A stretch of 23,299 bases of DNA. It comes from a virus. Its lineage: Duplodnaviria > Heunggongvirae > Uroviricota > Caudoviricetes. Of this stretch, positions 4,595-23,299 are shown piece by piece. The number at the start of each line of letters is the position of its first letter. Within the stretch, counting starts at the first letter, position 1. Made by a program: the position numbers and the translations under genes. The stretch lies in the IMG/VR virus record IMGVR_UViG_2740892232_000005. One strand, written 5' to 3'. Below the pieces are notes generated by a model. The model ran no database searches and had not been told where the DNA came from. It saw only the letters and a list, made by a program, of their open reading frames with translations.

Positions 4595-4597
4595 GTA

Positions 4598-4622: not shown

Positions 4623-4633
4623 ATAAATATTGA

Positions 4634-5308: not shown

Positions 5309-5324
5309 AACGAAATTAAAACCT

Positions 5325-5343: not shown

Positions 5344-5348
5344 GTATC

Positions 5349-5393: not shown

Positions 5394-5398
5394 ATTGT

Positions 5399-5599: not shown

Positions 5600-5630
5600 C
5601 AGAACACCTTCAATTTTTAACCACAGAACG

Positions 5631-7027: not shown

Positions 7028-7256
7028 TCCGTTGATCCTCAATATTTGCCGTTTGCTTCAGCGTAAAAAAACATCAATTCCTACAGTTGGGCAGTGGTAC
7101 ACCACGCCTGCAGGGCATGTTCTACGTGTTAGCCTGGTTGACCGTGAATGTCAGAAGGTGATTTGTGAACCGCTGGGCCGTAATTACCGCATCAGTATGC
7201 CGCTTATAGCCTTTTGCTCCGGAAAAAACATGAAGCATCTCGGAGGTGCAGCATGA
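7020..7256 (+). CDS. Small hypothetical protein (78 aa), possibly DUF4222-like
   Basis: ORF coupled at both ends (start overlaps previous stop, stop overlaps the next ATG as ATGA); G-x-W-Y...V-x-V pattern vaguely resembles small prophage DUF4222 proteins (weak recall). Confidence 0.45.
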   Translation: MLNPLILNICRLLQRKKTSIPTVGQWYTTPAGHVLRVSLVDRECQKVICEPLGRNYRISMPLIAFCSGKNMKHLGGAA

Positions 7257-8071: not shown

Positions 8072-8073
8072 TC

Positions 8074-8562: not shown

Positions 8563-9215
8563 TGAGTAATAAATATTGCCAGGAGCTGGTGGAGCTGCGG
8601 AACAAACCAGCCCATGAACTGAAGGAAGTGGGCGATCAGTGGCGCACGCCGGATAACATTTTCTGGGGAATTAACACCCTGTTTGGCCCGTTTGTCCTGG
8701 ATCTGTTTACTGACGGTGATAACGCCAAATGTACCGCGTATTACACGGCGGAAGACAACGCGCTGGCGCATGACTGGTCAGAACGTCTTGCGGAGCTTAA
8801 AGGTGCTGCCTTTGGTAATCCCCCATACAGCCGCGCCAGTCAGCATGAGGGGCAATACATCACCGGCATGCGTTACATCATGAAACATGCCAGTGCCATG
8901 CGTGATAAAGGCGGGCGCTATGTTTTCCTGATCAAAGCTGCCACCAGCGAAGTGTGGTGGCCGGAAGATGCAGATCATATTGCTTTTATTCGCGGGCGTA
9001 TTGGTTTTGAACTGCCTGCCTGGTTTATCCCGAAAGATGAGAAGCAGGTGCCGACAGGCGCTTTCTTCGCTGGTGCTATTGCTGTTTTCGACAAGACCTG
9101 GAAGGGACCGGCAATCAGCTACATCGGGCGCGATGAACTTGAGGCATGTGGTGAGGCGTTTCTGGCGCAGGTTCGCCAGCAGGCGGAAAAACTGGTCAGG
9201 GAGATGGCGGCATGA
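8562..9215 (+). CDS. dam: Phage Dam-type DNA N6-adenine methyltransferase
   Basis: NPPY catalytic motif (GNPPYSRA) and conserved N-terminal WRTP region; ATG 8562 overlaps the stop of the upstream gene (TAATG). The track ORF begins with an upstream GTG at 8529. Confidence 0.85.
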   Translation: MSNKYCQELVELRNKPAHELKEVGDQWRTPDNIFWGINTLFGPFVLDLFTDGDNAKCTAYYTAEDNALAHDWSERLAELKGAAFGNPPYSRASQHEGQYITGMRYIMKHASAMRDKGGRYVFLIKAATSEVWWPEDADHIAFIRGRIGFELPAWFIPKDEKQVPTGAFFAGAIAVFDKTWKGPAISYIGRDELEACGEAFLAQVRQQAEKLVREMAA

Positions 9216-9538
9216 CGACTTTAACTCAATGCCAGCAGCAGGTGCTGGATATGCTGATTTCTTATCAGAAAGAACGTGGCTTCCCGCCAACCAATCAGGA
9301 GGTGGCAACCATGCTGGGATACCGTTCAGTGAATGCAGCGGTGGAGCATCTTCGCGCACTGGAGAAAAAAGGCGTCATCACGATAAAGCGTGGTGTGGCC
9401 CGGGGGATCACGCTTCATACCGTGGTGAAGGACGACGACAGCGAGGCGGTCGGGATTATCCGCTCACTGCTTGCCGGTGAGGAAAACGCCAGGCTGCGTG
9501 CAGCCCACTGGTTACATGAGAGGGGCCTGAAAGTATGA
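9212..9538 (+). CDS. LexA-like DNA-binding-domain protein lacking the S24 peptidase domain (108 aa)
   Basis: N-terminal 70 aa align to the LexA winged-HTH (QQQVLDMLISY...GFPPT..EVA..LGYRSVNAAVEHLRALEKKGVI..RGITL); no peptidase domain and no Ala-Gly/Ser/Lys motifs; ATGA overlaps with dam and rusA. Confidence 0.8.
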   Translation: MTTLTQCQQQVLDMLISYQKERGFPPTNQEVATMLGYRSVNAAVEHLRALEKKGVITIKRGVARGITLHTVVKDDDSEAVGIIRSLLAGEENARLRAAHWLHERGLKV

Positions 9539-9930
9539 AGCTGATCCTGCCTTTTCCGCCCAGCGTGAACACGTACTGGCGACACCCCAACAAAGGGGCG
9601 TTTGCTGGTAAGAGCCTGATAAGCGCGGCGGGGCGAAAATTCCAGAGCGCGGCGTGTGCAGCAATAGTTGAGCAGTTACGTCGTCTGCCAAAACCAACGT
9701 CGGCACCTGCTTCAGTGGAGATCGTGTTGTTTCCTCCGGATAACCGGATCCGCGATCTGGACAACTATAACAAGGCGCTGTTTGACGCCCTGACCCACGC
9801 GGGTGTGTGGGAAGACGACAGTCAGGTGAAAAGAATGCTGGTGGAGTGGGGACCGGTTATCCCGGAGGGGAAGGTCGAGATCACTATCAGTAAGTACGAA
9901 AAAGCGAGTTGCAAATTAGCAACTCGGTAA
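9535..9930 (+). CDS. rusA: Holliday-junction resolvase RusA
   Basis: 131-aa ORF with the RusA-family DLDN motif (RDLDNYNKALFDALTHAGVWEDDSQV); nin-region position. Confidence 0.9.
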   Translation: MKLILPFPPSVNTYWRHPNKGAFAGKSLISAAGRKFQSAACAAIVEQLRRLPKPTSAPASVEIVLFPPDNRIRDLDNYNKALFDALTHAGVWEDDSQVKRMLVEWGPVIPEGKVEITISKYEKASCKLATR

Positions 9931-9975
9931 CGGAATTGAGCAACACCCTAAATTTGGGTATTACCTCGTTAAAGA

Positions 9976-9995
9976 TACTGTATTTATGAACAGTG
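9976..9995. promoter_or_regulatory. Consensus SOS (LexA) box TACTGTATTTATGAACAGTG upstream of the KilA-N gene
   Basis: CTGT-N8-ACAG with an AT-rich spacer read directly; matches the E. coli LexA box consensus TACTGTATATATATACAGTA at most positions; about 100 bp upstream of ATG 10093. Confidence 0.6.
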
Positions 9996-10092
9996 TATCC
10001 TTGATAACTATTAAAAATCGCAGTAAGTTCATCCTGCATCAACGAAAAGGGAGTGCAGTCCCGCTCGTGGATAAAAATTTGTGGAGAAACCA

Positions 10093-10908
10093 ATGAATCA
10101 GTTGCTTGTAATTGATGGCGTTTCTGTGCGCCAGTACTTCGAATCTAACTACTGTCTTAACGACCTTCAGAAAGCTGCTCTTCTTGCCGCTGGTGAGAAT
10201 CGCTCCTCCCGTTCGCTGGAAGTTCACGAGTTTATGCGTCGTCCTGAAACGAAGGCTCTTGTGGAATTATTGGAAGAAGAAACTACGGGAGATTCCCGTA
10301 GTATTCCTGTCATCACCATTCAGGGGCGCAATGGTGGGACGTATGTCTGTAAAGAGCTGGTCTATGCATATGCAATGTGGATCAGCCCGGCATTCAGCTT
10401 AAAAGTGATACGTACTTTTGATGCGCTTCATAATTCATCACCAGAAGAAACCACATCCGACAAAATTAAATCCGGGGTCATTCTGCTTGAATCAGCAGCA
10501 AAGACTCTAAATCTGTCAAACTCCTCGAAACTTGGTGCATACCAGAAATTATCAAAGGTAGCTGGTCTTCCTGAACTTATGCCGATCTATGCCATTGATG
10601 CACCTGCTGATGCGCCAGATGGTTCAAGCCGCCCTACGCTGTCGCTGAGTGCACTGCTGAAGCAGTATGGTATCCGCCTGACGGCTAATCAGGCATATCA
10701 CCAGATGGCGAAGCTGGGGATCGTTGAACAACGCGAACGATACAGTCGTACCGCGATTAACAACATCAAAAAATTCTGGTCGCTGACCGCGAAAGGCTGC
10801 ATGTTCGGCAAGAACATCACCAGTCCTGCAAATCCGCGCGAGACGCAGCCGCATTTCTTCGAATCCCGATTCCCTGAGCTGTTAAAGCTGCTCGATACCG
10901 TTCATTGA
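10093..10908 (+). CDS. KilA-N domain protein (candidate SOS-controlled antirepressor)
   Basis: N-terminal KilA-N motif (GTYVCKELVYAYAMWISPAF...KVI); GGAG RBS before ATG 10093; the antirepressor role is inferred from the upstream LexA box. Confidence 0.75.
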   Translation: MNQLLVIDGVSVRQYFESNYCLNDLQKAALLAAGENRSSRSLEVHEFMRRPETKALVELLEEETTGDSRSIPVITIQGRNGGTYVCKELVYAYAMWISPAFSLKVIRTFDALHNSSPEETTSDKIKSGVILLESAAKTLNLSNSSKLGAYQKLSKVAGLPELMPIYAIDAPADAPDGSSRPTLSLSALLKQYGIRLTANQAYHQMAKLGIVEQRERYSRTAINNIKKFWSLTAKGCMFGKNITSPANPRETQPHFFESRFPELLKLLDTVH

Positions 10909-10909
10909 G

Positions 10910-11905
10910 GTGACCGTGAGAGCACTACTGACCCCTGAAATTGCCCCGCGTATGGGGATCGTATTGTTCAGACCAGGTTCAGAGCTGATGCCCTTGTTTA
11001 TGCAGGGGCGTGTCCTGCTGGAGCCTGAGCCGGAACGTTATTCATCTTTCGCCAGTGGTGCCGTTCCGGCGGCATCACAACCGCTGGCGGATGATCCTGC
11101 CGTTCGGGCCGTGTTCCGCAATGAGGCAGTGATCCGTCGTGCTGGTGGCGTGGAATGTCTTGAAAGCTGGTTACTTCGTGAAAAAGGCTGCCAGTGGCCT
11201 CATTCCGACTGGCACAGCGAGAATATGACAACAATGCGACACGCTCCGGGCGCAATCCGTCTGTGCTGGCACTGCGATAACCAGCTGCGCGATCAGTTCA
11301 CGGAACGGCTGGAATCAATGGCAACGGATAACTGTGCCCGCTGGGTGTTGTCTGTTGTGCGTCGGGATCTCGGTTTTGATGACAGTCATGTTGTGACAAT
11401 GCAGGAACTGTGCTGGTGGCTGATTCGTAATGATCTGGCGGATGCCTTACCGGAAAGTGCAGCCCGTAAGGCACTGAGATTACCGAAGCCTGTTGTGCCG
11501 TCTGTTACCCGGGAAAGTGACCTTGTGCCTTCGGTTCCTGCCACCAGCATCATCCAGGATAAGGCGAAAAAGGTGCTGGCGCTGAAAGTGGATCCGGAGT
11601 CGCCGGAGTCTTTTATGTTACGCCCAAAACGTCACCGCTGGGTTAATGAAAAGTACACGCGCTGGGTTAAGACGCAGCCGTGCGCATGTTGTGGAAAACC
11701 TGCTGATGATCCCCACCACCTGATAGGCCACGGTCAGGGGGGAATGGGTACAAAAGCGCATGACCTTTTTGTGTTGCCTTTGTGCAGAAAGCATCACGAC
11801 GAGCTGCATGCGGATACCGTGGCATTTGAAGAGAAGTATGGCTCCCAGCTGGAGCTGATATTTCGTTTTATCGATCGTGCGCTGGCAATAGGCGTACTGG
11901 CGTAA
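10910..11905 (+). CDS. DUF968-family protein (YdfU-like) with C-terminal Cys/His (HNH-like) motif
   Basis: C-terminal CACCGKPADDPHHL...CRKHHDELH motif; precedes Q as ydfU does in Qin-like prophages; the start may be GTG 10910 or GTG 10916. Confidence 0.7.
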   Translation: MTVRALLTPEIAPRMGIVLFRPGSELMPLFMQGRVLLEPEPERYSSFASGAVPAASQPLADDPAVRAVFRNEAVIRRAGGVECLESWLLREKGCQWPHSDWHSENMTTMRHAPGAIRLCWHCDNQLRDQFTERLESMATDNCARWVLSVVRRDLGFDDSHVVTMQELCWWLIRNDLADALPESAARKALRLPKPVVPSVTRESDLVPSVPATSIIQDKAKKVLALKVDPESPESFMLRPKRHRWVNEKYTRWVKTQPCACCGKPADDPHHLIGHGQGGMGTKAHDLFVLPLCRKHHDELHADTVAFEEKYGSQLELIFRFIDRALAIGVLA

Positions 11906-11918
11906 GTGGAGAACGAGC

Positions 11919-12671
11919 ATGAACCTTGAAGCCTTACCAAAATATTACTCCCCAAAATCTCCAAAATTGAGTGATGACGCACCGGCGACAGGCTCTGGTG
12001 GTTTAACGATTACGGATGTGATGGCTGCGCAGGGGATGGTGCAATCGAAAGCACCGCTTGGGTTTGCCTTATTCCTGGCAAAAGTTGGTGTTCAGGATCC
12101 TCAGTTTGCGATTGAAGGTCTGCTCAATTACGCGATGGCACTGGATAACCCGACATTGAATAAATTGAGTGAAGAAACCCGGCTACAGATTATTCCTTAC
12201 CTTGTGAATTTTGCCTTTGCTGATTATTCCAGGTCTGCGGCAAGTAAGGCTCGTTGTGAGCATTGTGCTGGTACTGGATTTCATAATGTATTGCGCGAAG
12301 TGGTGAAACACTCCAGAAGCGGGGAATCTGTTATCAAAGAAGAGTGGGTGAAGGAACTATGTCAGCATTGCCATGGTAAGGGAGAAGTCAGCACAGCGTG
12401 CAGAGGGTGTAAGGGTAAAGGTATTGTCCTGGATGAAAAAAGGACCCGGCTTCATGGCACACCTGTTTATAAGATTTGTGGGCGTTGCAATGGAAAACGG
12501 TTTAGTCGTTTACCAACCACACTGGCGCGGCATCATGTCCAGAAGCTGGTACCGGACCTGAGTGATTATCAGTGGTATAAAGGATATGCAAATGTCATTG
12601 ATAAACTGGTTACAAAGTGCTGGCAGGAGGAATCTTACGCTGAAGCACAATTGAGAAAGGTGACGAGATAA
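11919..12671 (+). CDS. Q: Late-gene antitermination protein Q (Q82/QuuQ-like, 250 aa)
   Basis: 250 aa with multiple CxxC/HxxH zinc-binding motifs (CEHCAGTG...CQHCHGKG...CRGCKGKG...CGRCNG); followed by a strong promoter and terminator (PR'/tR'). Confidence 0.85.
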   Translation: MNLEALPKYYSPKSPKLSDDAPATGSGGLTITDVMAAQGMVQSKAPLGFALFLAKVGVQDPQFAIEGLLNYAMALDNPTLNKLSEETRLQIIPYLVNFAFADYSRSAASKARCEHCAGTGFHNVLREVVKHSRSGESVIKEEWVKELCQHCHGKGEVSTACRGCKGKGIVLDEKRTRLHGTPVYKICGRCNGKRFSRLPTTLARHHVQKLVPDLSDYQWYKGYANVIDKLVTKCWQEESYAEAQLRKVTR

Positions 12672-12703
12672 GTGATTTTCGCCGAAGATGGCGACGTGAT
12701 GCT

Positions 12704-12732
12704 TGCATTTTTCAAAAAATATGGATAAAATT
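12704..12732 (+). promoter_or_regulatory. Late promoter PR'-like: -35 TTGCAT (12704-12709), 17-nt spacer, -10 TAAAAT (12727-12732)
   Basis: Hexamers read from the sequence immediately downstream of Q; the qut site is not defined. Confidence 0.55.
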
Positions 12733-12776
12733 TTTTCAACGATGGGCTTTGTATACCCGAAGTTAAGAAAAAGTAG

Positions 12777-12803
12777 AAAACCCGCTGATGAGCGGGTTTT
12801 TGT
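12777..12803 (+). terminator. tR'-like rho-independent terminator (AAAACCCGC-TGATGA-GCGGGTTTTT)
   Basis: Perfect GC-rich stem plus T-run about 45-60 nt downstream of the PR'-like promoter, the classic Q-antiterminated short-transcript arrangement. Confidence 0.7.
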
Positions 12804-13093
12804 GCTTTAAATAGGGTAATAGAGATGTTGAATCTCATTACGGGATTCATGTTAGTTTACTTATTATTTATCGGGTGACTTTGTTTTTTGCCTGATGTTT
12901 AAAATGTTTTCTTCCAGTACAATGTCCATAGATACAATGAGTTTGCTTATTACATTATTAGCAGAGCTATTAAGGTCAAAGTACAGCATAAGCTTTTAAA
13001 GCCAATCAACCAGTCATCAAGACAGACGGGTTTATTCATGAAAACTCTCCATGTTTGATTCGATGGGGCTTGAAGTTAAAGCTTTAATATAGC

Positions 13094-13306
13094 TCATGAA
13101 AGGTAAACATTGGCAGCTGATGGTCCACGCAGGCCATTTATCCGGCAAAATTCCACGCGTAATCCGGTGGTAATTTCTTCTGCATCGCGGAGATTGAGCG
13201 CTGAAACATGAAGCTGGACATCGATACGACCATTGGATGGGGTTATAAGACCTTTGCCGCTTTTGCCGTCAAAGGTTTTGAGAATTCCTGTCATTTTACG
13301 GGACAA
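13094..13306 (-). CDS. cspF: Cold-shock-like protein, CspF/CspH type (70 aa), apparent TTG start
   Basis: [12 protein letters not shown]...[13 protein letters not shown] matches the CspF/H paralog type; AAGGA RBS 8 nt upstream of a TTG initiation codon; ATG at the fifth codon is an alternative. Confidence 0.85.
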
Positions 13307-13605
13307 AAAATTCCTTAATACTGATAACTTGGCGCACTATACACACGTTCCTGAAGAAAGCTATAGTTTTTTGATGGGGTTGAAGATGGCTGGATGTCTA
13401 AAATAAACATTGCTTCATATGTTCAACTATGCGTTAATGATTGCGTCGGTTTGAAGAACAGACGATATACGAAGTAGTTTACTAAAGCAGTTCTCATTTC
13501 AGGTGTTATTCACTTATTCCTTCTTTGAGTCTCTCCAATTAAGTACGAAGTCGTTTCTGTTATACAAGCCATTTATGCCGAAAGGCTCAAGTTAAGGAAT
13601 GTAGA

Positions 13606-13821
13606 ATGTCAAATAAAATGACTGGTTTAGTAAAATGGTTTAACGCTGATAAAGGTTTTGGCTTTATTTCTCCTGTTGATGGTAGTAAAGATGTGTTTGT
13701 GCATTTTTCTGCGATTCAGAATGATAATTATCGAACCTTATTTGAAGGTCAAAAGGTTACCTTCTCTGTAGAGAGTGGTGCTAAAGGTCCTGCAGCAGCA
13801 AATGTCATAATTACTGATTAA
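13606..13821 (+). CDS. cspB: Cold-shock protein, CspB/CspG/CspI type (71 aa)
   Basis: [38 protein letters not shown] with RNP1/RNP2 motifs; AAGGA RBS; long upstream leader typical of csp genes. Confidence 0.92.
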
Positions 13822-14102
13822 AATTCATAGTTTGTCTGTATACGATAACGAAGAAGGCTGATGCCTGAGTGGAGATACAGACAGAGTGGTGAATATTGGA
13901 TCTCTTTAATAAATAGTAAGGAGGTCCAATACATGAAACAATGGCCAGCATATTTGGCAATAACTTAATCAGGAAAAGTATGCTAACCATTGTGGTGAAG
14001 TGCAGGTTTGCTGCATGAATAGTTTTACAGCAGAAGCTAACTGCTGGCATAGCAAAACAAAGTGCGTAAGTGGATGACTCCCACAAAAAGTACCACAATA
14101 TT

Positions 14103-14127
14103 AAACCCGCTCAGGCGGGTTTTTTAT
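14103..14127. terminator. Rho-independent terminator (AAACCCGC-TCAG-GCGGGTTTTTT), possibly bidirectional
   Basis: GC stem with a T6 run on the plus strand; lies between the cspB-like gene and the convergent minus-strand zinc-ribbon gene. Confidence 0.6.
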
Positions 14128-14184
14128 TATCTGCTTTAAATATGTTATTAAAATATAAAAAATACTTGTTACGAATAAAATCAA

Positions 14185-14355
14185 TCAAGCTACAGCTTTA
14201 AGATTTGTCTGGAATACTTTGTTGCAATGAGGGCAGATCAAAAGGGCACCTTTTTGTATTCTTGAAAAACTGTGTTCTGACTCTTGGGTGCAGTTTGGGC
14301 AGGAACATTTAACGAGATAATTACGGCGTGATTTTGAGTCTTTACGTTCTGACAT
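14185..14355 (-). CDS. Small zinc-ribbon protein (56 aa; CxxC...CxxC)
   Basis: Internal ATG 14355 with AGGA RBS; CPNC...CPHC motif pair; the longer track ORF start (14406) lacks an RBS. Confidence 0.5.
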   Translation of the reverse strand: MSERKDSKSRRNYLVKCSCPNCTQESEHSFSRIQKGALLICPHCNKVFQTNLKAVA

Positions 14356-14573
14356 AGGCTTTTCCTGTATAAATGGCCGTATACAGTACACTAAATATGA
14401 AAACATATCTCGTATTATTATTTAACATATGATTTTCTTTTAAAATAATTACCCACATTTTTAATGTGTCTGTTTTTTAGCGCCGTTGAGAACAACGTTT
14501 GCTATAAAAACTACCCCATAGACTCCGATCTTTTCAAACATATTGCACCATCTGTGTACATCGGGGTGAGGAT

Positions 14574-14789
14574 ATGAAATCAATGGATAAGTTAACAACA
14601 GGTATCGCCTATGGCACATCGGCTGGTAATGCTGGTTTCTGGGCATTGCAGTTACTCGATAAAGTAACTCCGTCACAGTGGGCTGCAATCGGTGTGCTGG
14701 GTAGTCTGGTATTTGGCTTGCTGACGTACCTGACAAACCTTTATTTCAAGATTAAAGAAGACAAGCGTAAGGTTGCACGGGGAGAGTAA
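14574..14789 (+). CDS. essD: Holin, phage-21 S-type pinholin (EssD/EssQ-like) with dual-start motif MKSMDK
   Basis: 71 aa; MKSMDK dual start at ATG 14574 and ATG 14583 (antiholin/holin); two transmembrane segments; close match to S21/EssD as recalled. Confidence 0.9.
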
Positions 14790-14793
14790 TTCA

Positions 14794-15039
14794 ATGACAC
14801 AAAACTATGAACTGATTGTGAAAGGGATCCGCAATTTTGAGAATAAAGTTGCGGTAACTGTAGCATTAAGGGACAAAAAACGCTTTGACGGTGAAATTTT
14901 TGACCTGGACATCTCGCTGGACCGTGTTGAAGGTGCCGCGCTGGAGTTTTATGAGGCAGCAGCCAGAAGGAGCNNNNNNNNNNAGTTGCAGCCGGGTTAT
15001 GTGAAGGGGATGAGCAGTCGCCGGAAAAGCGCCCCATAA
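14794..15039 (+). CDS. YdfR-like small protein; reading frame interrupted by scaffold gap 14974-14983
   Basis: ATG 14794 with GGAGAG RBS; 60 codons up to the gap (MTQNYELIVKGIRNFENK...); sequence after the N-run may belong to another contig, so the C-terminus is unreliable. Confidence 0.45.
   Translation: MTQNYELIVKGIRNFENKVAVTVALRDKKRFDGEIFDLDISLDRVEGAALEFYEAAARRSXXXXLQPGYVKGMSSRRKSAP
14974..14983. other. Assembly gap (10 N)
   Basis: Run of n in the sequence. Confidence 1.
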
Positions 15040-15093
15040 TTTTAGAGGCGCAGAGTGTGTGGATAACCTACAAAGGAAAACTGCCGGGAAGAA

Positions 15094-15366
15094 TTACTGG
15101 TTCACTGAAGACTCCGCCGAAATGGTAATTTCACCAGCATATTTTTCCTCCAGTAATACCGCCAGCCACTTGAAAGAATTTTGTTGTTGCTGGGACCATT
15201 TGGGATTGATTGATTCAAGCTGGAGCGATGCCAGTGTTGGTTGCATTTGTTCCTTGGGAATTGAGAATGCCAGATATGAAAATGCGACAGCAAGGGCATT
15301 TACATCATCCCGAAGCCTGGAAATGCAGTCGAGCAACTCCTGTAGAGAAATGGTGCTATTGTCCAT
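15094..15366 (-). CDS. Hypothetical protein (90 aa) encoded antisense within the lysis cassette
   Basis: Minus-strand ORF with AGAGAGGA RBS 6 nt upstream of ATG 15366; helical-looking sequence; the overlapping plus-strand ORF 15059..15391 is Ser/Cys-rich and judged spurious. Confidence 0.45.
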   Translation of the reverse strand: MDNSTISLQELLDCISRLRDDVNALAVAFSYLAFSIPKEQMQPTLASLQLESINPKWSQQQQNSFKWLAVLLEEKYAGEITISAESSVNQ

Positions 15367-15471
15367 AAACAATCCTCTCTATTGTATTTAACTATTCCTT
15401 GCCTGATTCAACAGGCCGGGACAGATAAACATATCCAGGGTTCAGAAACCGATAAATCCTGATAAATATCC

Positions 15472-16005
15472 ATGAACGCAAAAATCAGATACAGCCTGTC
15501 GGCTACTGTACTAGTGCTGATTGGTGCAGGCGCGTCTGCTCCTCAAATACTTGACCAGTTTCTGGACGAAAAAGAAGGTAACCACACAACGGCATACCGT
15601 GATGGTTCCGGCATCTGGACCATCTGTCGGGGTGCCACGATGGTGGATGGAAAACCCGTTTTTCCCGGTATGAAACTGTCGAAGGAAAAATGCGACCAGG
15701 TTAACGCCATCGAACGTGATAAGGCGCTGGCATGGGTGGAACGTAATATTAAAGTACCACTGACCGAACCACAAAAAGCGGGTATCGCGTCATTTTGCCC
15801 CTATAACATTGGCCCCGGTAAGTGTTTCCCGTCGACGTTTTATAAGCGGCTTAATGCCGGTGATCGTAAAGGTGCCTGTGAGTCGATTCGCTGGTGGATT
15901 AAGGACGGTGGGCGTGATTGCCGCACACGTTCAAATAACTGCTACGGACAGGTTATTCGTCGTGACCAGGAAAGCGCATTAGCCTGTTGGGGGATAGATC
16001 AGTGA
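15472..16005 (+). CDS. rrrD: Endolysin, T4-lysozyme-family true lysozyme with N-terminal SAR (signal-anchor-release) domain (RrrD/R21-like)
   Basis: Catalytic E...D...T triad context ([20 protein letters not shown]); weakly hydrophobic Gly/Ala-rich N-terminal segment ([14 protein letters not shown]); paired with a pinholin. Confidence 0.9.
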
Positions 16006-16463
16006 GAAGAGTAGCCGCGATTATCTCCGCTCTGGTTATCTGCATCATCGTCTGCCTGTCTTGGGCTGTTAATCATTACCGTGATAACGCCATTACCTAC
16101 AAAGCCCTGCACGACAAAAATGCCAGAGAACTGAAGCTGGCGAACGCGGCAATTACTGACATGCAGATGCGTCAGCGTGATGTTGCTGCGCTCGATGCAA
16201 AATACACGAAGGAGTTAGCTGATGCGAAAGCTGAAAATGATGCTCTGCGTGATGATGTTGCCGCTGGCCGTCGTCGGTTGCACATCAAAGCAGTCTGTCA
16301 GTCAGTGCGTGAAGCCACCACCGCCTCCGGCGTGGATAATGCAGCCTCCCCCCGACTGGCAGACACCGCTGAACGGGATTATTTCACCCTCAGAGAGAGG
16401 CTGATCACTATGCAAAAACAACTGGAAGGAACCCAGAAGTATATTAATGAGCAGTGCAGATAG
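16002..16463 (+). CDS. Rz: Spanin inner-membrane subunit Rz (i-spanin), near-identical to lambda Rz
   Basis: [32 protein letters not shown]...KYINEQCR matches lambda Rz almost residue for residue (from memory); GTG start overlaps the endolysin stop (GTGA). Confidence 0.9.
16222..16404 (+). CDS. Rz1: Spanin outer-membrane lipoprotein Rz1 (o-spanin), embedded in the +1 frame of Rz
   Basis: [23 protein letters not shown]...[15 protein letters not shown]; lipobox and proline-rich region identical in character to lambda Rz1. Confidence 0.85.
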
Positions 16464-16494
16464 AGTTGCTCATATCGATGGGCAACTCATGCAA

Positions 16495-16788
16495 TTATTT
16501 TGAGCAATACACCCGCGCTTCCAGCGGAGTATAAATGCCAAAAGTGATGAAACCGAGCAATCCATTTACGAATGTTTGCTGGGTTTCTGTTTTAACCACA
16601 TTTTCTGCACCACCACAAATTTTTGCTGCATCGACAGTTTTCTTCTGCCCAATTCCCGAAACGAAGAAATGATGGGTGATGGTTTCCTTTGGTGTTACTG
16701 CTGTCGGTTTGTTTCCAACAGTAAACGTCTGTTGAGCACATCCTGTAATAAGCATTGCCAGAGCGGCAGAAAACAACATTTTTTTCAT
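16495..16788 (-). CDS. bor: Bor lipoprotein (serum-resistance protein, lambda Bor-like)
   Basis: MKKMLFSAALAMLITGCAQQTFTV...LEARVYC matches lambda Bor; ATG at 16788 with AGGAT RBS; the track ORF has an N-terminal extension. Confidence 0.9.
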   Translation of the reverse strand: MKKMLFSAALAMLITGCAQQTFTVGNKPTAVTPKETITHHFFVSGIGQKKTVDAAKICGGAENVVKTETQQTFVNGLLGFITFGIYTPLEARVYCSK

Positions 16789-17268
16789 CTTATTATCCTG
16801 CATTGTTAAAAACGGCAGAATCCTATGTGACAACAATTAAACGATAGTTAAATGGATTGATGAAAATTAAAACTACACAGGTGAGCTCAGACGATTGGAG
16901 GGAGTTGGGGACACTCAGAATCCTGTAGAATGAAATAAACCGGTCTATCCGTCCATTACCCTTTTAGCTGCGCTGTATCGTCGCCGTATTCCCGCATTAA
17001 CCATGACCGTAGCCCGACGGGGAATTCCTTCTGCGTGAGTGTGCGGGAATAATTAAAAACGATGCACACCGGGTTTTTACCGCGTTAATGATTCGCGGAT
17101 TTATCCCGGTGCGATGGTGGAAGAAACCGGAAGCTGTATTACAGAAAGTGCTACTACTGTATCCCGATGCGATGTATGTAATGTGAGTCAGATAATGGCA
17201 CAGGATGTGGTGATGTGGCAGTCTGGAACACAGGATATATTGTCAGAATAAGACCCGTAGGAATAAAA

Positions 17269-17595
17269 ATGAAAAGACGCCTTTTACTACTTTTTCTGTT
17301 ATCTGTCCTAGCAGTGGGATGCTCGCAGCAAAAAGCTGATGAGCCCCGGCAATTAGTGACGGTGTATCCACGATATCCGGAATATGCTGCAGCAAATTAT
17401 ATCAAGGGGCTGGTTGAGGTTAAGTTCGATATTGGTGCTGATGGGACTGTGACACGGATCGTTTTTCTCCGCTCAGAGCCTCATAATTTGTTTCGTGATG
17501 AAGTGGTGAAGGCCATGGCGAAATGGCGATTTGAAAAGAATCGTCCCTGTCAGGGAGTGAAGAGACAATTTATCTTTACGCCGTCACGTCCCTGA
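17269..17595 (+). CDS. Outer-membrane lipoprotein carrying a TonB C-terminal domain (108 aa)
   Basis: Signal peptide plus lipobox (LLLLFLLSVLAVGC, Ser at +2); C-terminal YPRYPEYAAANYIKGLVEVKFDIGADGTVTRIVFLRSEPHNLFRDEVVKAMAKWRFE aligns with the TonB C-terminal domain; AGGA RBS before ATG 17269. Confidence 0.75.
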   Translation: MKRRLLLLFLLSVLAVGCSQQKADEPRQLVTVYPRYPEYAAANYIKGLVEVKFDIGADGTVTRIVFLRSEPHNLFRDEVVKAMAKWRFEKNRPCQGVKRQFIFTPSRP

Positions 17596-17717
17596 TGCTT
17601 CCAGGTAGAGAGGGGCTGGAAGCAGGAGAAAAATGAAAGAGCCAGCGGTTATATTTTTGTCATGGCTGACGAGGAATGATGGAAGAAGGCGTTGTATGCC
17701 ACACAACGCCTCACTGT

Positions 17718-18071
17718 TCATTTCTTCTTTTTCTCTAGTGGAACCCGATGAATAAGAGTTGCACTGGTTTCCGATGAGATGGCGATATACTCGGGCAAAG
17801 TATGCTGGCAGTTTTCCAACTGGTCAAAAATACCTGCTCTCGTCTGTTGCAATGCCTGCAGCATGCGGCGGCAATGCGCCTTGCTTTTGCTAACCATCTT
17901 TCCTTCCTCTATCAGTCGCTGCGTGAACTCATCATGGAATACCAGGTAAATGCGGATGTTATCGGTTTTGGCTACGCAGCATAGTACAAAACGGACAGGT
18001 GCATCCCGGGACGGGGGAGGCGTCACATGTCCCTGTGATGGTTGTTCCGGGTAATGCACTGTGTGGGGCAT
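17718..18071 (-). CDS. Hypothetical ORF (117 aa); may be the 3' part of a frameshifted gene together with 17959..18210
   Basis: ORF only; overlaps the adjacent minus-strand ORF in another frame; no RBS verified. Confidence 0.25.
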   Translation of the reverse strand: MPHTVHYPEQPSQGHVTPPPSRDAPVRFVLCCVAKTDNIRIYLVFHDEFTQRLIEEGKMVSKSKAHCRRMLQALQQTRAGIFDQLENCQHTLPEYIAISSETSATLIHRVPLEKKKK

Positions 18072-18210
18072 AAAAATGTCCGATAATTTTACTTTCTACC
18101 GCAGTTAGTTGATTCGTTGGTCCTGGTAGCACATTGGGCGAGGATTTAAATGCCAGGCAACTGAAGGATGATGTTGCAAGGGAGATAGCGAGAATATTTC
18201 TGATTTTCAT
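17959..18210 (-). CDS. Small secreted Cys-rich protein (83 aa) with N-terminal signal peptide
   Basis: ATG 18210; MKIRNILAISLATSSFSCLA signal-like N-terminus; C-terminal TGTCDASPVPGCTCPFC cluster; weak RBS. Confidence 0.3.
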   Translation of the reverse strand: MKIRNILAISLATSSFSCLAFKSSPNVLPGPTNQLTAVESKIIGHFYAPHSALPGTTITGTCDASPVPGCTCPFCTMLRSQNR

Positions 18211-18359
18211 TTGATGATGCCTCTGTGTGAAATGACGGTAAACGACGCACTTGTGCCGGCACATAATAGCAAGCACCATAATAGATCAGATTCGATTCTT
18301 GCTGTAAGTGATAATTATTCTCGTTTTTCGGGTCCTTTCCGGCGATCCAACAGGCTACG

Positions 18360-18371
18360 GGGCGGCGACCT
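18360..18371. other. cosN cohesive-end site (GGGCGGCGACCT), identical to the lambda 12-nt cohesive end
   Basis: Sequence 18357-18405 (ACGGGGCGGCGACCTCGCGGTTTTTCGCTATTTATGA) matches the lambda left-end sequence; located about 230 bp upstream of the Nu1-like gene. Confidence 0.7.
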
Positions 18372-18587
18372 CGCGGTTTTTCGCTATTTATGAGATTTTT
18401 TGAGGGGGTGGTTGTTGTTTAATTGTTTGGTATATCTAATTGATAAGTAAGGTGAAAATAAAATAAATACAACAACCTTACGATGTGCTTTGATGTCATT
18501 AATGTGAAAAAATTAAATGATATCAAATGGTTTTGTAAAAACACATGGTTGTTGTATCGCTTTTTATCGATGACTTATGGAGAGGAG

Positions 18588-19094
18588 ATGGCCTTTTTAT
18601 TGAATAAAAGTGATATGGCCTCCTCCATCGGTATCTCTGTTCAGGCATTTGATAAATGGGGCGTTCCTCCTGTCGAGCGTCGGGGGAGGGAAGTTTTTTA
18701 TGACGTTAAAACTGTACTGGAGATAGATCGCGAGCGGCGACAACACAATCATAGAACACCTGATGACGGGGGCGATCTGGAGGAAAGGCTGCTTCGGGCC
18801 AGAGCTGAACTGACAGAAGAACAGGCCGTAGCTCAAAAACTTAAAAATCAGGTAACCGAAGGTAAGCTCATCGATTCAGACTTCTGCGTTTTCGCCCTCA
18901 GCAAGCTGGCGATGGCATTGTCCAGTACGCTTGATTCTATTCCGTTATCCATGCAGCGACAGTTCCCGGATTTAACGCCACGTCATCTTGACCATCTGAA
19001 AACCCTTATTGCGAAGGGCGCAAATCAGTGTGCGCGGGCAGGGGATAAATTACCGGATTTGCTGGATGAATATATCAGAGCAACAACTGAATAA
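18588..19094 (+). CDS. nu1: Terminase small subunit (lambda gpNu1-like)
   Basis: N-terminal winged-HTH region and C-terminal LSMQRQFPDL...LPDLLDEYI resemble lambda Nu1; ATG 18588 preceded by GGAGAGGAG (alternative ATG 18570); overlaps the terminase large subunit start as in lambda. Confidence 0.85.
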   Translation: MAFLLNKSDMASSIGISVQAFDKWGVPPVERRGREVFYDVKTVLEIDRERRQHNHRTPDDGGDLEERLLRARAELTEEQAVAQKLKNQVTEGKLIDSDFCVFALSKLAMALSSTLDSIPLSMQRQFPDLTPRHLDHLKTLIAKGANQCARAGDKLPDLLDEYIRATTE

Positions 19095-21638
19095 TCTGAT
19101 GGCTGCCGTTTCGGTTGCGCTGCAGCCTCTGGTCAGGGTTGTACCGATGACGGCAGTTGAATGGGCTGACCAGTATTATTATCTGCCGAAAGAATCCTCA
19201 TACGGTGACGGCGAATGGAAAACGCTGCCGTTCCAGATCGCCATCATGAACAGTATGGGGAATGATCAGGTCCGCACTGTTAATCTGATTAAATCTGCCC
19301 GTGTTGGCTATACAAAGATGTTGCTGGGGGTGGTCGGGTATTTTATTGAGCATAAATCCCGAAACAGTCTGCTTTTTCAGCCCACGGATTCTGCCGCTGA
19401 AGATTTTATGAAGTCTCACGTGGAGACGACGATTAGGGACGTGCCATGCCTGAAAGACCTTTCCCCATGGCTGGGTCGTAAACATCGTGATAATACCCTC
19501 ACGCTGAAACGCTTTTCATCGGGCGTCGGTTTCTGGTGCCTGGGCGGCGCTGCCGCCAAAAACTACCGTGAAAAATCCGTGGATGTGGTCTGCTATGACG
19601 AACTTTCCTCGTTCGAACCGGATGTTGAAAAAGAGGGTTCGCCAACCCTGCTGGGGGATAAACGTATTGAGGGCTCTGTATGGCCAAAATCCATTCGCGG
19701 CTCGACGCCTAAAATCAAAGGCTCCTGCCAGATCGAAAAAGCCGCTAACGAGTCGGCACATTTCATGCGTTTTTATGTGCCCTGCCCGCACTGTGGGGAG
19801 GCGCAGTATCTGAAATTTGGCGATGAATCCACGCCTTTTGGCCTTAAATGGGAGAAGGACAGCCCCGAAAGCGTTTTCTACCTCTGTGAACATCATGGCT
19901 GCGTGATCCATCAGTCTGAGCTTGACCAGAGCAACGGGCGGTGGATCTGTGAAAACACGGGGATGTGGACCCGTGACGGTCTGACGTTTTTCAGCGCCGC
20001 GGATAATGAAATTCCGCCGCCGCGCTCCATCACGTTCCATATCTGGACGGCGTACAGTCCGTTCACCACCTGGGTACAGATAGTCTATGACTGGCTGGAT
20101 GCACTGNNNNNNNNNNCATGTGGACCCGTGACGGCCTGATGTTTTTCAGCGCCCGGGGTGATGAAATTCCGCCGCCGCGCTCCATCACTTTCCATATCTG
20201 GACGGCGTACAGTCCGTTCACCACCTGGGTACAGATAGTCTATGACTGGCTGGATGCACTGAAAGATCCCAACGGCCTGAAAACCTTTGTGAACACCACG
20301 CTGGGCGAGACCTGGGAAGAGGCCGTGGGCGAAAAACTCGATCACCAGGTACTGATGGATAAGGTCGTGCATTACACGGCGGCGGTGCCAGCCCGGGTGG
20401 TTTATCTGACGGCGGGCATTGACTCGCAGNNNNNNNNNNACGTCCCGATGAGGAAGAGACGCTGTTACGTGTGGATGCGGCGATCAACAAAAAATACCGC
20501 CATGCAGACGGAACCGAAATGACCATTTCCCGTGTCTGCTGGGACATCGGGGGTATCGATGGCGAAATCGTTTATCAGAGGTCAAAAAAACACGGTGTTT
20601 TCCGGGTGCTGCCGGTAAAAGGCGCATCTGTCTATGGCAAGCCGGTGATCACCATGCCAAAAACCCGCAATCAGCGGGGCGTGTATCTGTGTGAAGTGGG
20701 GACAGACACCGCAAAAGAAATTCTCTATGCCCGTATGAAAGCCGAGCCCACGCCTGCGGATGAATCCACGTCGTATGCCATCCGTTTTCCTGATGATCCG
20801 GAGATTTTTTCGCAGACAGAGGCGCAGCAACTGGTCGCGGAAGAGCTTGTGGAGAAGTGGGAAAAAGGAAAGATGCGTCTGCTGTGGGATAACAAAAAGC
20901 GGCGTAACNNNNNNNNNNCGAAACCGTTTTGAGATGTATGTCTGGGGATGGGCTCCGGGAGAGGAAGCCTTTCTGGTGGATAAAATCATCATTATGGGGC
21001 GTCCCGATGAGGAAGAGACGCTGTTACGTGTGGATGTGGCGATCAACAAAAAATACCGCCATGCAGACGGAACCGAAATGACCATTTCCCGTGTCTGCTG
21101 GGACACCGGGGGGATCGATGGCGAAATTGTCTATCAGAGGTCAAAAAAACACGGTGTTTTCCGGGTGCTGCCGGTAAAAGGTGCATCTGTTTATGGCAAG
21201 CCGGTGATCACCATGCCAAAAACCCGCAATCAGCGGGGCGTGTATCTGTGCGAAGTGGGGACGGACACCGCAAAAGAAATTCTCTATGCCCGTATGAAAG
21301 CCGATCCCACGCCTGCGGATGAAGCCACGTCGTATGCCATCCGTTTTCCTGATGATCCGGAGATTTTTTCGCAGACAGAGGCGCAGCAACTGGTGGCGGA
21401 AGAGCTTGTGGAGAAGTGGGAAAAAGGAAAGATGCGTCTGCTGTGGGATAACAAAAAGCGGCGTAACGAAGCGCTGGACTGCCTGGTGTATGCCTACGCG
21501 GCATTACGTGTGTCCGTGCAACGCTGGCAGCTTGATCTGGCTGTACTGGCAAAATCCCGGGAAGAAGAGACGACCCGGCCAACCCTTAAAGAACTGGCAG
21601 CGAAGCTGTCCGGAGGAGTGAATGGTTACAGTCGCTGA
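19066..21638 (+). CDS. A: Terminase large subunit (lambda gpA-like); span inflated by three scaffold gaps and two redundant variant segments
   Basis: MNISEQQ...AVEWADQYYYLPKESSYGDGEWKTLPFQIAIMN...TWVQIVYDWLDAL...WDNKKRRNEALDCLVYAYAALR is collinear with lambda gpA; true length about 642 aa once duplicated segments 20118-20261 and 20441-20908 are removed. Confidence 0.85.
19963..20106 (+). repeat. Contig-end overlap: 144 nt that reappears at 20118-20261 with about 6 mismatches
   Basis: Direct comparison of the sequence on both sides of the N-run. Confidence 0.9.
20107..20116. other. Assembly gap (10 N)
   Basis: Run of n. Confidence 1.
20430..20439. other. Assembly gap (10 N)
   Basis: Run of n. 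Confidence 1.
20441..20908 (+). repeat. Redundant variant copy (about 97-98% identical) of terminase segment 21000-21467, bounded by two N-gaps
   Basis: Direct comparison: same reading frame and protein segment (RPDEEETLLRVD...WDNKKRRN) with roughly 10 SNPs. Confidence 0.9.
20909..20918. other. Assembly gap (10 N)
   Basis: Run of n. Confidence 1.
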
Positions 21639-21828
21639 ACTGCAGGCGCTGCGTCAGGCGCGCCTTGATTTATTAACCGGTAAACGGGTGGTGTCTGTCC
21701 AGAAAGATGGTCGCAGAATTGAATATACGGCGGCTTCTCTGGATGAGCTTAACCGGGCGATCAATGATGCGGAGTCGGTACTGGGGACAACCCGACGTCG
21801 CCGTCGTCCGCTGGGAGTGAGGTTATGA
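21622..21828 (+). CDS. W: Head-tail joining protein (lambda gpW-like, 68 aa)
   Basis: LTGKRVVSVQKDGRRIEYTAASLDEL matches lambda gpW ([21 protein letters not shown]); start overlaps the terminase large subunit stop. Confidence 0.85.
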   Translation: MVTVAELQALRQARLDLLTGKRVVSVQKDGRRIEYTAASLDELNRAINDAESVLGTTRRRRRPLGVRL

Positions 21829-23299
21829 AACGAACGCCTGTCCTGATTGATGTGAACGGTGTTCCGCTTCGTGAGAGTCTCAGCTACAACGGGGGCGGCG
21901 CAGGATTTGGCGGGCAAATGGCGGAGTGGTTGCCACCTGCGCAGAGTGCCGATGCGGCCCTGCTGCCCGCGTTGCGTCTGGGGAATGCCCGGGCAGATGA
22001 TCTAGTGCGCAATAACGGAATAGCGGCTAATGCGGTTGCCCTGCATAAGGATCACATTGTCGGGCATATGTTTCTGATCAGCTACCGTCCGAACTGGCGC
22101 TGGCTGGGGATGCGGGAGACCGCAGCAAAAAGCTTTGTCGATGAGGTGGAGGCGGCCTGGTCGGAATACGCCGAAGGGATGTTTGGCGAGATCGACGTGG
22201 AAGGAAAACGCACGTTCACGGAATTTATCCGTGAAGGTGTGGGCGTTCATGCGTTTAACGGCGAAATCTTTGTGCAGCCGGTCTGGGATACGGAAACCAC
22301 GCAGTTATTCCGTACGCGTTTTAAAGCTGTGAGTCCGAAACGGGTGGACACGCCTGGACACGGTATGGGGAACCGTTTTCTGCGGGCCGGTGTGGAGGTC
22401 GATCGATATGGCCGTGCCGTCGCGTACCATATCTGTGAGGATGATTTTCCGTTCTCTGGTAGTGGACGATGGGAACGGATCCCGCGTGAACTTCCCACCG
22501 GGCGTCCGGCCATGCTGCATATTTTCGAGCCGNNNNNNNNNNGGCTAATCAGTTTTACAGCGTCATGGAACGGCTGAAGATGCTCGATTCCCTGCAGGCA
22601 ACACAGCTTCAGTCGGCCATAGTGAAGGCGATGTATGCAGCGACGATTGAAAGTGAACTTGATACCGAAAAGGCCTTTGAATATATCGCCGGCGCGCCAC
22701 AGGAGCAGAAGGATAATCCGCTTATTAATATTCTGGAGAAGTTCTCCAGCTGGTATGACACGAATAACGTGACACTGGGCGGAGTCAAAATTCCGCACCT
22801 TTTCCCTGGTGATGATCTGAAACTACAGACTGCGCAGGATTCAGACAATGGATTTTCTGCACTTGAACAGGCGCTGCTGCGGTATATCGCCGCCGGTCTT
22901 GGCGTTTCCTACGAACAGTTGTCCCGTGATTACTCGAAGGTCAGTTACTCAAGTGCCCGCGCCTCCGCCAATGAGTCGTGGCGCTATTTTATGGGGCGGC
23001 GAAAATTTATTGCGGCCCGGCTGGCCACGCAGATGTTTTCCTGCTGGCTGGAAGAGGCACTTCTTCGGGGGATTATTCGTCCGCCACGGGCACGTTTTGA
23101 TTTTTATCAGGCGCGATCAGCCTGGTCACGGGCAGAGTGGATTGGTGCCGGAAGAATGGCCATTGACGGGCTCAAGGAAGTCCAGGAATCAGTGATGCGC
23201 ATTGAGGCCGGACTGAGCACGTATGAGAAAGAGCTGGCGCTGATGGGCGAGGATTATCAGGACATTTTCCGCCAGCAGGTCAGGGAATCTGCAGAGCGG
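21825..23299 (+). CDS. B: Portal protein (lambda gpB-like), 3'-truncated by the window end and interrupted by gap 22533-22542
   Basis: GGGAGFGGQ...LPALRLGNARADDLVRNNGIAANA...FRTRFKAVSPKR, and after the gap AIVKAMYAATIESELD...LRYIAAGLGVSYEQLSR...MAIDGLKEVQE, collinear with lambda gpB. Confidence 0.9.
22533..22542. other. Assembly gap (10 N)
   Basis: Run of n. Confidence 1.

What the first reader, a model, noticed from the sequence alone, without database searches (positions are those of the whole stretch)
19963..21467. Terminase gene contains scaffold joins with un-merged, SNP-bearing overlaps (apparent tandem duplications are artefacts)
Seen: five runs of exactly 10 N (14974, 20107, 20430, 20909, 22533). 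Sequence 19963-20106 reappears at 20118-20261 with about 6 mismatches, and 20441-20908 is a 97-98% identical copy of 21000-21467, both in frame with the same gpA segments. Inference: contigs from two closely related lambdoid prophages (or a mixed population) were ordered and joined with fixed N spacers. Physical linkage across each gap is therefore unproven, so the early region (left of 14974) and the lysis/head region may not belong to the same prophage copy.
Basis: seen in the sequence. Interest (0 to 1): 0.5.

Follow-up and report, generated by a model that had tools for sequence, protein, structure and literature searches.

The report
Assembly artefact inside prophage terminase gene
The apparent tandem duplications in this E. 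coli prophage terminase gene are not real: a short-read assembler strung alternative versions of the same gene segment, from near-identical prophage copies, one after another with 10-N spacers, so this is an ordinary draft-assembly artefact.

Summary
There are five runs of exactly 10 N, and the only two long direct repeats in the window both abut N-runs: 19963-20106 vs 20118-20261 (7/144 mismatches) and 20441-20908 vs 21000-21467 (12/468).

The window is the last 23.3 kb of contig CCPW01000033.1 (GCA_000753035.1), a draft E. coli assembly. Mapped onto phage 21 and closed E. coli prophages:
- Piece 3 (20117-20429) and piece 5 (20919-22532) abut with no base missing.
- Piece 4 (20440-20908) lies wholly inside piece 5's span.
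- Piece 2's last 145 nt overlap piece 3's first 145 nt.

Deleting 20107-20261 and 20430-20918 (644 nt) restores an intact 1929-nt, 642-codon gpA-type large terminase gene. As scaffolded, that span has 19 stops.

Four piece ends lie exactly 72 nt after the last SNP, and pieces 2, 3, 4 and 6 start on a polymorphic base. This is the signature of de Bruijn graph nodes at k = 73, joined by the assembler's own read-pair scaffolder.

Both alleles are natural. In closed genomes such as K56-43-un, different alleles of this segment sit in two prophages 1.4 Mb apart.

Its doubt about linkage at 14974 is justified: the closest relative changes exactly at that gap. There is no new biology here.

The parts
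14974..14983 (.). 10-N spacer inside a YdfR-family gene downstream of the holin. It hides 20 invariant bases (ATCAGACAGGTCTTCCTGGA in L003 and DFK.1). The closest relative changes across it.
18360..18406 (+). cos-like region, matching bases 1-47 of the phage 21 genome, which include cosN. Function is inferred from that match only.
   Evidence: 91.5% over 47 nt to OL657228 bases 1-47; cos annotation of phage 21.
18483..19094 (+). Small terminase subunit (Nu1 family). The ORF is as listed; the true start is probably 18588, by analogy with the 507-nt gene in L003.
   Evidence: ORF; PF07471 Phage_Nu1, E = 2e-20; L003 annotation.
19066..20106 (+). Large terminase (gpA-type) codons 1-347, at the end of piece 2. 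It carries the ATPase domain.
   Evidence: PF05876 GpA_ATPase, E = 1.8e-55; 19300-19961 identical to L003.
19962..20106 (+). Overlap A, first copy: the tail of piece 2. It carries 8 SNPs in 19962-20034 (the '118UI-type' allele) followed by 72 identical bases.
20107..20116 (.). 10-N spacer. No sequence is missing here; the flanks overlap by 145 nt.
20117..20429 (+). Piece 3: gpA codons 299 (third base) to 403. It starts on a SNP (C vs G at 19962). It ends 72 nt after its last difference from the L003 allele (20357).
20430..20439 (.). 10-N spacer between piece 3 and the redundant piece 4.
20440..20908 (+). Piece 4: a redundant allelic contig covering gpA codons 430 (third base) to 586. It is 100% identical to prophage L003 of K56-43-un. 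It starts on the first SNP and ends 72 nt after the last SNP relative to piece 5.
20909..20918 (.). 10-N spacer between piece 4 and piece 5.
20919..21638 (+). Piece 5, first part: gpA codons 404-642 plus the stop, carrying the nuclease domain. It begins at the reference base immediately after piece 3's end. 20999-21467 is the second allele of the piece 4 segment.
   Evidence: (PF20454 GpA_nuclease, E = 1.6e-41).
21622..21828 (+). gpW-type head-tail joining protein gene (68 aa).
   Evidence: ORF; the collinear genes in L003/L004/phage 21 are annotated as head-tail joining / head completion protein.
21825..23299 (+). Portal (gpB-type) gene. It is interrupted by the N-run at 22533-22542, which hides 23 invariant bases and shifts the frame, and it is cut off by the end of the contig.
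22533..22542 (.). 10-N spacer in the portal gene. Piece 5 ends 72 nt after its last difference from the 118UI/DFK.1-type allele (22460). Piece 6 starts on a base that is polymorphic in PhiR12_1 (G/A).

Best explanation
The stretch is a single gpA-type large terminase gene (1929 nt, 642 codons) of a lambdoid, phage 21-like E. coli prophage. It is misrepresented in a draft short-read assembly.

The sequenced genome holds two or more near-identical copies of the Nu1-A-W-B packaging/head module. A de Bruijn graph assembler working at k = 73 could not thread reads through the SNP-bearing stretches, so the graph formed forks and bubbles.

The assembler's read-pair scaffolder then placed the alternative arms one after another and separated them with a fixed minimum buffer of 10 N. 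Piece 2's tail and piece 3's head are the two arms of one fork. Piece 4 and the interior of piece 5 are the two arms of one bubble.

Nothing is duplicated in the DNA. 644 nt of the scaffold (20107-20261 and 20430-20918) are redundant.

Shown: the redundancy, the restoration of the ORF, the k-1 = 72 signature, and that the alleles occur naturally, in some closed genomes in separate co-resident prophages.

Inferred: that the copies are co-resident prophages in this particular strain, and that the assembler was Velvet or something that writes nodes the same way.
For: 1. Geometry on references. On phage 21 coordinates, piece 2 ends at 1749, piece 3 spans 1605-1917, piece 4 spans 1999-2466, piece 5 spans 1918-3531 and piece 6 spans 3555-4311. 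Pieces 3 and 5 therefore abut exactly, piece 4 is contained in piece 5, and pieces 2 and 3 overlap by 145 nt.

2. ORF restoration. Removing the redundant stretches gives a 1929-nt ORF with no stop along either allele path, with 2-10 amino-acid differences from the L003 terminase. The scaffolded version has 19 stops and 12 X. Pfam finds GpA_ATPase and GpA_nuclease in the fragments.

3. k-mer signature.
- Piece ends 20106, 20429, 20908 and 22532 each lie exactly 72 nt after the last SNP (20034, 20357, 20836, 22460).
- Pieces 3 and 4 start on a SNP.
- Pieces 2 and 6 start on naturally polymorphic bases.
- Piece 5 starts at the first base after piece 3's end.
- Only 0.86% of positions satisfy the +72 rule with any of six references, and 0.09-0.37% do so for the two internal comparisons. 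The joint chance is of order 1e-10.

4. The alleles are real and can be co-resident. Piece 4 is 100% identical in seven closed genomes. Piece 2's tail is 100% identical in many, and its 122-nt junction is exact in 49 IMG/VR contigs. Genomes holding this gene have a median of 2 and up to 5 copies. In K56-43-un, the two alleles lie at 4.35 Mb and 2.94 Mb.

5. Piece 5 differs from both K56-43-un prophages only inside piece 4's span, plus one base. This is what a bubble with identical flanks looks like.

6. Other observations.
- No related locus has two copies.
- These are the only long direct repeats in the window, and both abut N-runs.
- The scaffold itself ends inside the portal gene, which is typical of an unresolved repeat.
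- The Velvet scaffolder joins read-pair neighbours for which it finds no path with an N buffer (PMC2793427).
Against: - No reads are available, so neither copy number nor coverage could be measured.
- Piece 1's end (14973) does not fit the +72 rule against the one alternative reference tested there, DFK.1 (distance 95). An unseen allele has to be invoked.
- Piece 5 as a whole is not found at better than 99.3% in any closed genome, so it could itself be a consensus of copies.
- That Velvet writes a minimum of 10 N is my recollection of the program's behaviour. The papers I could read did not confirm it.
Confidence: 0.85

Rival explanations
1. Same artefact, different cause. The two alleles come from a mixed or contaminated culture (two E. 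coli strains, or a lysogen plus free phage), not from co-resident prophages in one chromosome.
For: Without reads this cannot be excluded. The bridged junction at 14974 and piece 5 as a whole are not found intact in any closed genome. At least three allele types are implied, which is many for one genome.
Against: The source is an isolate WGS assembly with a 195-kb contig that includes this prophage. Closed E. coli genomes that carry this gene hold a median of 2 and up to 5 copies. K56-43-un and EC28 carry different alleles of this segment in two prophages of one chromosome. A mixed culture would be expected to break the assembly genome-wide, not only in prophage modules; that could not be tested here.
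Confidence: 0.08
2. Same artefact, different join. Finished contigs were ordered against a reference genome by an external tool and concatenated with fixed 10-N spacers, with no read-pair evidence.
For: All pieces are collinear with phage 21 and related prophages. All five spacers have the same length.
Against: Exported contigs of a de Bruijn assembler carry k-1 shared bases at both ends. Here pieces run 72 nt past the last SNP at their 3' end but begin exactly on the SNP at their 5' end, and pieces 3 and 5 abut with zero overlap. This asymmetry fits nodes appended inside the assembler. The 20 and 23 hidden bases are invariant stretches between polymorphic sites, as expected for short shared nodes that a scaffolder skipped. 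This argument is an inference from the standard de Bruijn node representation, which I hold from my own knowledge.
Confidence: 0.06
3. The partial duplications of gpA are really present in tandem in a decayed prophage, and the N-runs merely mark short unsequenced stretches.
For: None beyond the scaffold as written.
Against: - Every repeat boundary coincides with an N-run.
- The copy ends obey the +72 rule.
- Pieces 3 and 5 abut exactly around piece 4.
- Collapsing restores an intact ORF.
- None of the 48 and 55 related loci carrying these segments has two copies.
Confidence: 0.01

Closest known systems
Large terminase subunit of phage 21 (gp2) and lambda gpA, with the Nu1-A-W-B packaging/head module
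   Same: After collapsing, the gene is 1929 nt / 642 codons, the same length as phage 21 gp2 and the homologues in closed E. coli prophages. It has GpA_ATPase and GpA_nuclease domains and the same neighbours: cos, Nu1, W and portal.
   Different: It has 52-56 amino-acid differences from phage 21 gp2, mostly in the N-terminal part, which is L003-type. In the deposited scaffold it is split into four fragments.
Prophage at 4.35 Mb of E. coli K56-43-un (NZ_CP053079.1; locus L003)
   Same: Window 1572-14973 is 99.86% identical. 19300-19961 and piece 4 are 100% identical. Gene order is the same from yfdR/yfdQ/yfdP to the portal gene.
   Different: The integrase end (1-1571) does not match. The lysis module (14985-18400) is instead DFK.1/L004-like, with bor/iss and a TonB_C ORF. 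Piece 2's tail, piece 3 and piece 5 carry other alleles.
False duplications from uncollapsed alleles in scaffolded short-read assemblies (bubble arms or 'haplotigs' placed in series)
   Same: Two versions of one segment, a few percent apart, sit next to each other and are separated by N gaps. Collapsing them restores the gene. Contig ends are set by k-mer length.
   Different: This is a haploid bacterium, so the 'alleles' are paralogous copies in different prophages (inferred) and not the two haplotypes of a diploid.

Membership tests
gpA-type (lambda/phage 21) large terminase subunit | N-terminal GpA ATPase domain (PF05876) | tested here: met
   window 19066-20106 scores E = 1.8e-55 (188.7 bits, cut-off 25.6), covering profile positions 5-247 of 247.
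gpA-type (lambda/phage 21) large terminase subunit | C-terminal GpA endonuclease domain (PF20454) | tested here: met
   window 20919-21638 scores E = 1.6e-41. The fragment covers profile positions 89-287 of 294; the remainder is encoded in piece 3.
gpA-type (lambda/phage 21) large terminase subunit | One uninterrupted ORF of about 640 codons, placed between Nu1 and W/portal and downstream of cos | tested here: met
   Met only after removing the redundant 644 nt, which gives 1929 nt with no stop. Neighbours are shown. As deposited, the ORF is broken (19 stops).
Genuine tandem (segmental) duplication | A readable novel junction between the end of copy 1 and the start of copy 2 | tested here: not met
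   Every copy boundary is an N-run. No junction sequence exists.
Genuine tandem (segmental) duplication | The duplication is seen in independent related genomes, or the copy ends are unrelated to assembly parameters | tested here: not met
   None of the 48 and 55 related loci carrying these segments has two copies. Copy ends lie exactly 72 nt after the last SNP in four cases.
De Bruijn graph fork/bubble arms placed in series by a scaffolder | Redundant pieces map to the same reference interval, and the neighbouring pieces abut or overlap | tested here: met
   piece 4 lies within piece 5, pieces 3 and 5 abut, and pieces 2 and 3 overlap by 145 nt.
De Bruijn graph fork/bubble arms placed in series by a scaffolder | Piece ends set by k: each arm extends k-1 bases beyond its last variant | tested here: met
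   Four ends lie at +72. The chance is 0.86% or less per end. One further end (14973) does not fit against DFK.1, the alternative reference tested there.
De Bruijn graph fork/bubble arms placed in series by a scaffolder | Both variants exist as real sequences that can be co-resident | tested here: met
De Bruijn graph fork/bubble arms placed in series by a scaffolder | Shared flanks have a multiple of single-copy read depth, and read pairs link the arms to the flanks | not testable with these tools

The most novel reading that the evidence does not exclude
The most novel reading not strictly excluded is that the strain really carries a prophage whose gpA gene holds two internal partial tandem duplications, with divergent copies, and that the N-runs fall on the junctions by coincidence.

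A milder version is biologically true but ordinary. The strain carries three or more co-resident phage 21-like prophages whose terminase genes are patchwork recombinants of one another.
Probability: 0.01. Interest if true: 0.25.

Novelty: not a real feature. Interest (0 to 1): 0.05.

Why it matters
The finding has practical value only.

The public record for this contig carries four partial terminase CDSs (357, 134, 156 and 239 aa) where there is one gene. It also carries a frameshifted portal gene and 644 nt of sequence that does not exist in tandem. Anyone counting pseudogenes, calling this prophage defective, or using the scaffold to infer prophage mosaicism would be misled.

The scaffold also cannot be used as evidence that the early region, the lysis cassette and the head genes belong to one prophage.

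The +72 / start-on-SNP rule is a simple reference-free way to recognise this class of artefact in old short-read assemblies.

Tried and rejected
- **Source search in GTDB representatives.** An N-bridging pattern and an N-free 122-nt pattern both gave 0 matches. The N-bridging pattern in IMG/VR also gave 0. The source was finally found through an artefactual ORF that crosses an N-run.
- **Looking for a natural haplotype.** Among the 49 IMG/VR loci sharing the 122-nt junction, I looked for one matching either collapsed path beyond piece 2. None was close to exact (23 or more mismatches over 1964 nt), so the haplotypes of the source strain could not be reconstructed.
- **Integrase look-up.** The protein is far too common (2448 blocks) to identify the source. 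It showed only that this integrase lies next to folD/ybcJ and sfm-type fimbrial genes in other genomes.
- **Literature.**
  - Searches for a documented 10-N minimum gap gave nothing useful.
  - The original Velvet paper is not held.
  - Searches for the accession numbers gave 0 papers.
  - The Velvet attribution therefore stays a recollection, supported only by the Pebble paper's description of N buffers.
- **Sequencing error as the cause of the SNPs.** Rejected because both variants occur at 100% identity in closed genomes. Changes in overlap B are mostly synonymous (8 synonymous vs 4 non-synonymous codons).
- **Real duplication.** Considered and rejected; see the rival explanations.

Full report
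**Observation.**
The window holds exactly five N-runs, each of 10 bases, at 14974, 20107, 20430, 20909 and 22533. They cut it into six pieces: 1-14973, 14984-20106, 20117-20429, 20440-20908, 20919-22532 and 22543-23299.

The two claimed repeats are there. 19963-20106 vs 20118-20261 differ at 7 of 144 positions. 20441-20908 vs 21000-21467 differ at 12 of 468. A repeat scan finds no other direct repeat of 40 nt or more in the whole window, and both families touch N-runs.

**What the region is.**
The stretch 19000-22532 matches phage 21 and many lambdoid E. coli phages and prophages at about 96%. The genes under the match are annotated terminase small subunit (Nu1), terminase large subunit (A), head-tail joining protein (W) and portal (B). 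The 3533-nt query collapses onto only about 2889 nt of reference.

Pfam finds the following:
- Phage_Nu1 in 18483-19094
- GpA_ATPase in 19066-20106
- GpA_nuclease in 20919-21638
- upstream: a Q-type antiterminator, a P21-type holin, lysozyme, Rz, Bor and a TonB_C ORF
- a tyrosine integrase at 1-1164 on the minus strand

A match to bases 1-47 of phage 21 places a cos-like site at 18360-18406. The window is therefore a lambdoid prophage running from its integrase to its portal gene.

**Geometry of the pieces.**
On phage 21 coordinates:

| Piece | Window | Phage 21 |
|---|---|---|
| 2 | 14984-20106 | ends at 1749 |
| 3 | 20117-20429 | 1605-1917 |
| 4 | 20440-20908 | 1999-2466 |
| 5 | 20919-22532 | 1918-3531 |
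| 6 | 22543-23299 | 3555-4311 |

The same relations hold on two prophages of the closed genome K56-43-un. It follows that:
- Pieces 3 and 5 abut with no base missing.
- Piece 4 lies wholly inside the span of piece 5.
- Piece 2's last 145 nt overlap piece 3's first 145 nt.
- The N-run at 22533 hides 23 bases, and the one at 14974 hides 20.

Removing 20107-20261 and 20430-20918 (644 nt) gives a 1929-nt ORF of 642 codons with no internal stop, whichever allele path is taken. It differs from the L003 terminase at 2-10 residues. The scaffolded version has 19 stops and 12 X, and the four fragments lie in frames 1/0/2/0.

**The variants are real alleles.**
- Piece 4 is 100% identical to a prophage in seven closed E. 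coli genomes.
- Piece 2's tail (19900-20106) is 100% identical in many closed genomes.
- The 122 nt spanning the start of that tail occur exactly in 49 IMG/VR contigs.
- In overlap B, 8 of the 12 changed codons are synonymous.

About 1,880 of 5,426 complete E. coli genomes carry this gene segment, with a median of 2 and up to 5 places per genome. In K56-43-un and EC28, piece 4's allele sits in one prophage (4.35 Mb in K56-43-un). The best match to piece 5 sits in another, 1.4 Mb away (2.94 Mb).

Piece 5 differs from both of those prophages only inside piece 4's span (20999-21395), plus one base at 22328. That is the picture of two copies with identical flanks and a divergent core, which forms a bubble in an assembly graph.

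None of the 48 related loci that hold the piece 4 segment, and none of the 55 that hold the overlap A segment, has it twice.

**Assembly signature.**

| Piece | End | Last difference | Compared with | Distance |
|---|---|---|---|---|
| 2 | 20106 | 20034 | piece 3 | 72 |
| 3 | 20429 | 20357 | L003 allele | 72 |
| 4 | 20908 | 20836 | piece 5 | 72 |
| 5 | 22532 | 22460 | 118UI/DFK.1-type allele | 72 |

The allele type that sets piece 5's end is the same type as piece 2's tail.

The starts behave differently from the ends:
- Piece 3 begins on a SNP (20117 C vs 19962 G).
- Piece 4 begins on a SNP (20440 A vs 20999 G).
- Piece 5 begins at the base right after piece 3's end.
- Piece 2 begins on a base that is A in L003 and T in DFK.1.
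- Piece 6 begins on a base that is G here and A in PhiR12_1.
- The hidden 20 nt are identical in L003 and DFK.1, and the hidden 23 nt are identical in all six references.

As an empirical null, only 0.86% of positions in this gene lie exactly 72 nt after a last SNP relative to any of six references. The figure is 0.09-0.37% for the two internal comparisons. Four hits out of five testable ends cannot be chance.

A segment that begins on its first variant and ends k-1 bases after its last variant is what a de Bruijn graph node looks like when written as the last base of each k-mer. This is my knowledge of the Velvet data structure; the paper was not available. It gives k = 73.

The Velvet scaffolder is described as merging read-pair neighbours for which no path is found, separated by a buffer of N (PMC2793427). 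That the buffer has a floor of 10 N is my recollection and is not verified.

One end does not fit. Piece 1 ends 95 nt after its last difference from DFK.1, so an allele I have not seen would have to be invoked.

**Source.**
An artefactual ORF that crosses the N-run at 20430 identified the record: NCBI GCA_000753035.1, contig CCPW01000033.1, 194,999 bp. The window is bases 171701-194999, so the scaffold ends inside the portal gene, as expected where a repeat stops the assembly.

The gene calls on record split the terminase into four CDSs of 357, 134, 156 and 239 residues.

**Linkage.**
The order of pieces 2 to 6 is the gene order of every reference, so the order is right. Which prophage copy each piece comes from is open.

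At 14974 the doubt is concrete:
- Piece 1 has no mismatch to L003 from 8212 to 14973.
- Piece 2 has 6 mismatches to L003 in its first 137 nt. It then follows a different lysis cassette, 98.3% identical to DFK.1 over 3.4 kb and 98.5% identical to the second prophage of K56-43-un.
- I rebuilt the junction from 400 nt on each side plus the 20 hidden bases. The best of 5,426 closed genomes matches it at only 96.6%, although each half alone has a near-perfect match.

Either this strain has a new recombinant, or the scaffold joins two prophages there.

At least three allele types are implied within the terminase-portal stretch: L003-type, 118UI/DFK.1-type and the piece 5 type.

**Verdict.**
What is really there is one ordinary phage 21-type large terminase gene in a lambdoid prophage of a draft E. 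coli genome. That genome very probably carries two or three related prophages.

A mixed culture, or an external contig-ordering step, remain minor alternatives for how the artefact arose. A genuine duplication is very unlikely. There is no new biology, and interest is low.

Noticed in passing
window 14574-15383 (gap at 14974-14983): The closest relative switches exactly at this N-run. The left side is 100% L003-type over the last 6.7 kb; the right side is DFK.1-type. No closed E. coli genome holds the rebuilt junction at better than 96.6%. This is either a novel recombinant in a YdfR-family gene or a chimeric scaffold join.
   Followed up: partly
window 16495-16836 (-) and 17215-17595 (+): The prophage lysis/cos-proximal region carries a Bor/Iss-family lipoprotein gene (serum-survival family) and a small ORF with a TonB C-terminal domain. 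The same cargo occurs in the second prophage of K56-43-un and in DFK.1.
   Followed up: partly
window 23299 = base 194999 of CCPW01000033.1: The scaffold ends inside the portal gene, about 100 nt before its expected stop. The rest of the head and tail genes of this prophage must lie on other contigs.
   Followed up: partly
window 19066-21638; locus L064: The public gene calls for this record list four separate partial terminase CDSs (357, 134, 156, 239 aa). The portal gene is also frameshifted, because 23 real bases are replaced by 10 N.
   Followed up: yes
window 1-1571: The integrase end of the prophage does not match L003, although the next 13.4 kb are 99.86% identical. In other genomes the identical integrase lies next to folD/ybcJ and sfm-type fimbrial genes, which suggests a DLP12-type integration site. 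The att site and a tRNA were not looked for.
   Followed up: no
window 13094-13306 (-) and 13606-13821 (+): These ORFs correspond, by collinearity with L003, to the cold-shock paralogues cspF and cspB. They lie between the Q antiterminator and the holin, as is typical of Qin/e14-type lambdoid prophages.
   Followed up: no
window 18303-18406: Inside piece 2, with no N, the best match changes from L004/DFK.1-type to L003-type. The change falls within a stretch of about 100 nt around cos that is shared by both. That stretch is longer than k-1 = 72, so an in-contig chimera at cos cannot be excluded.
   Followed up: no
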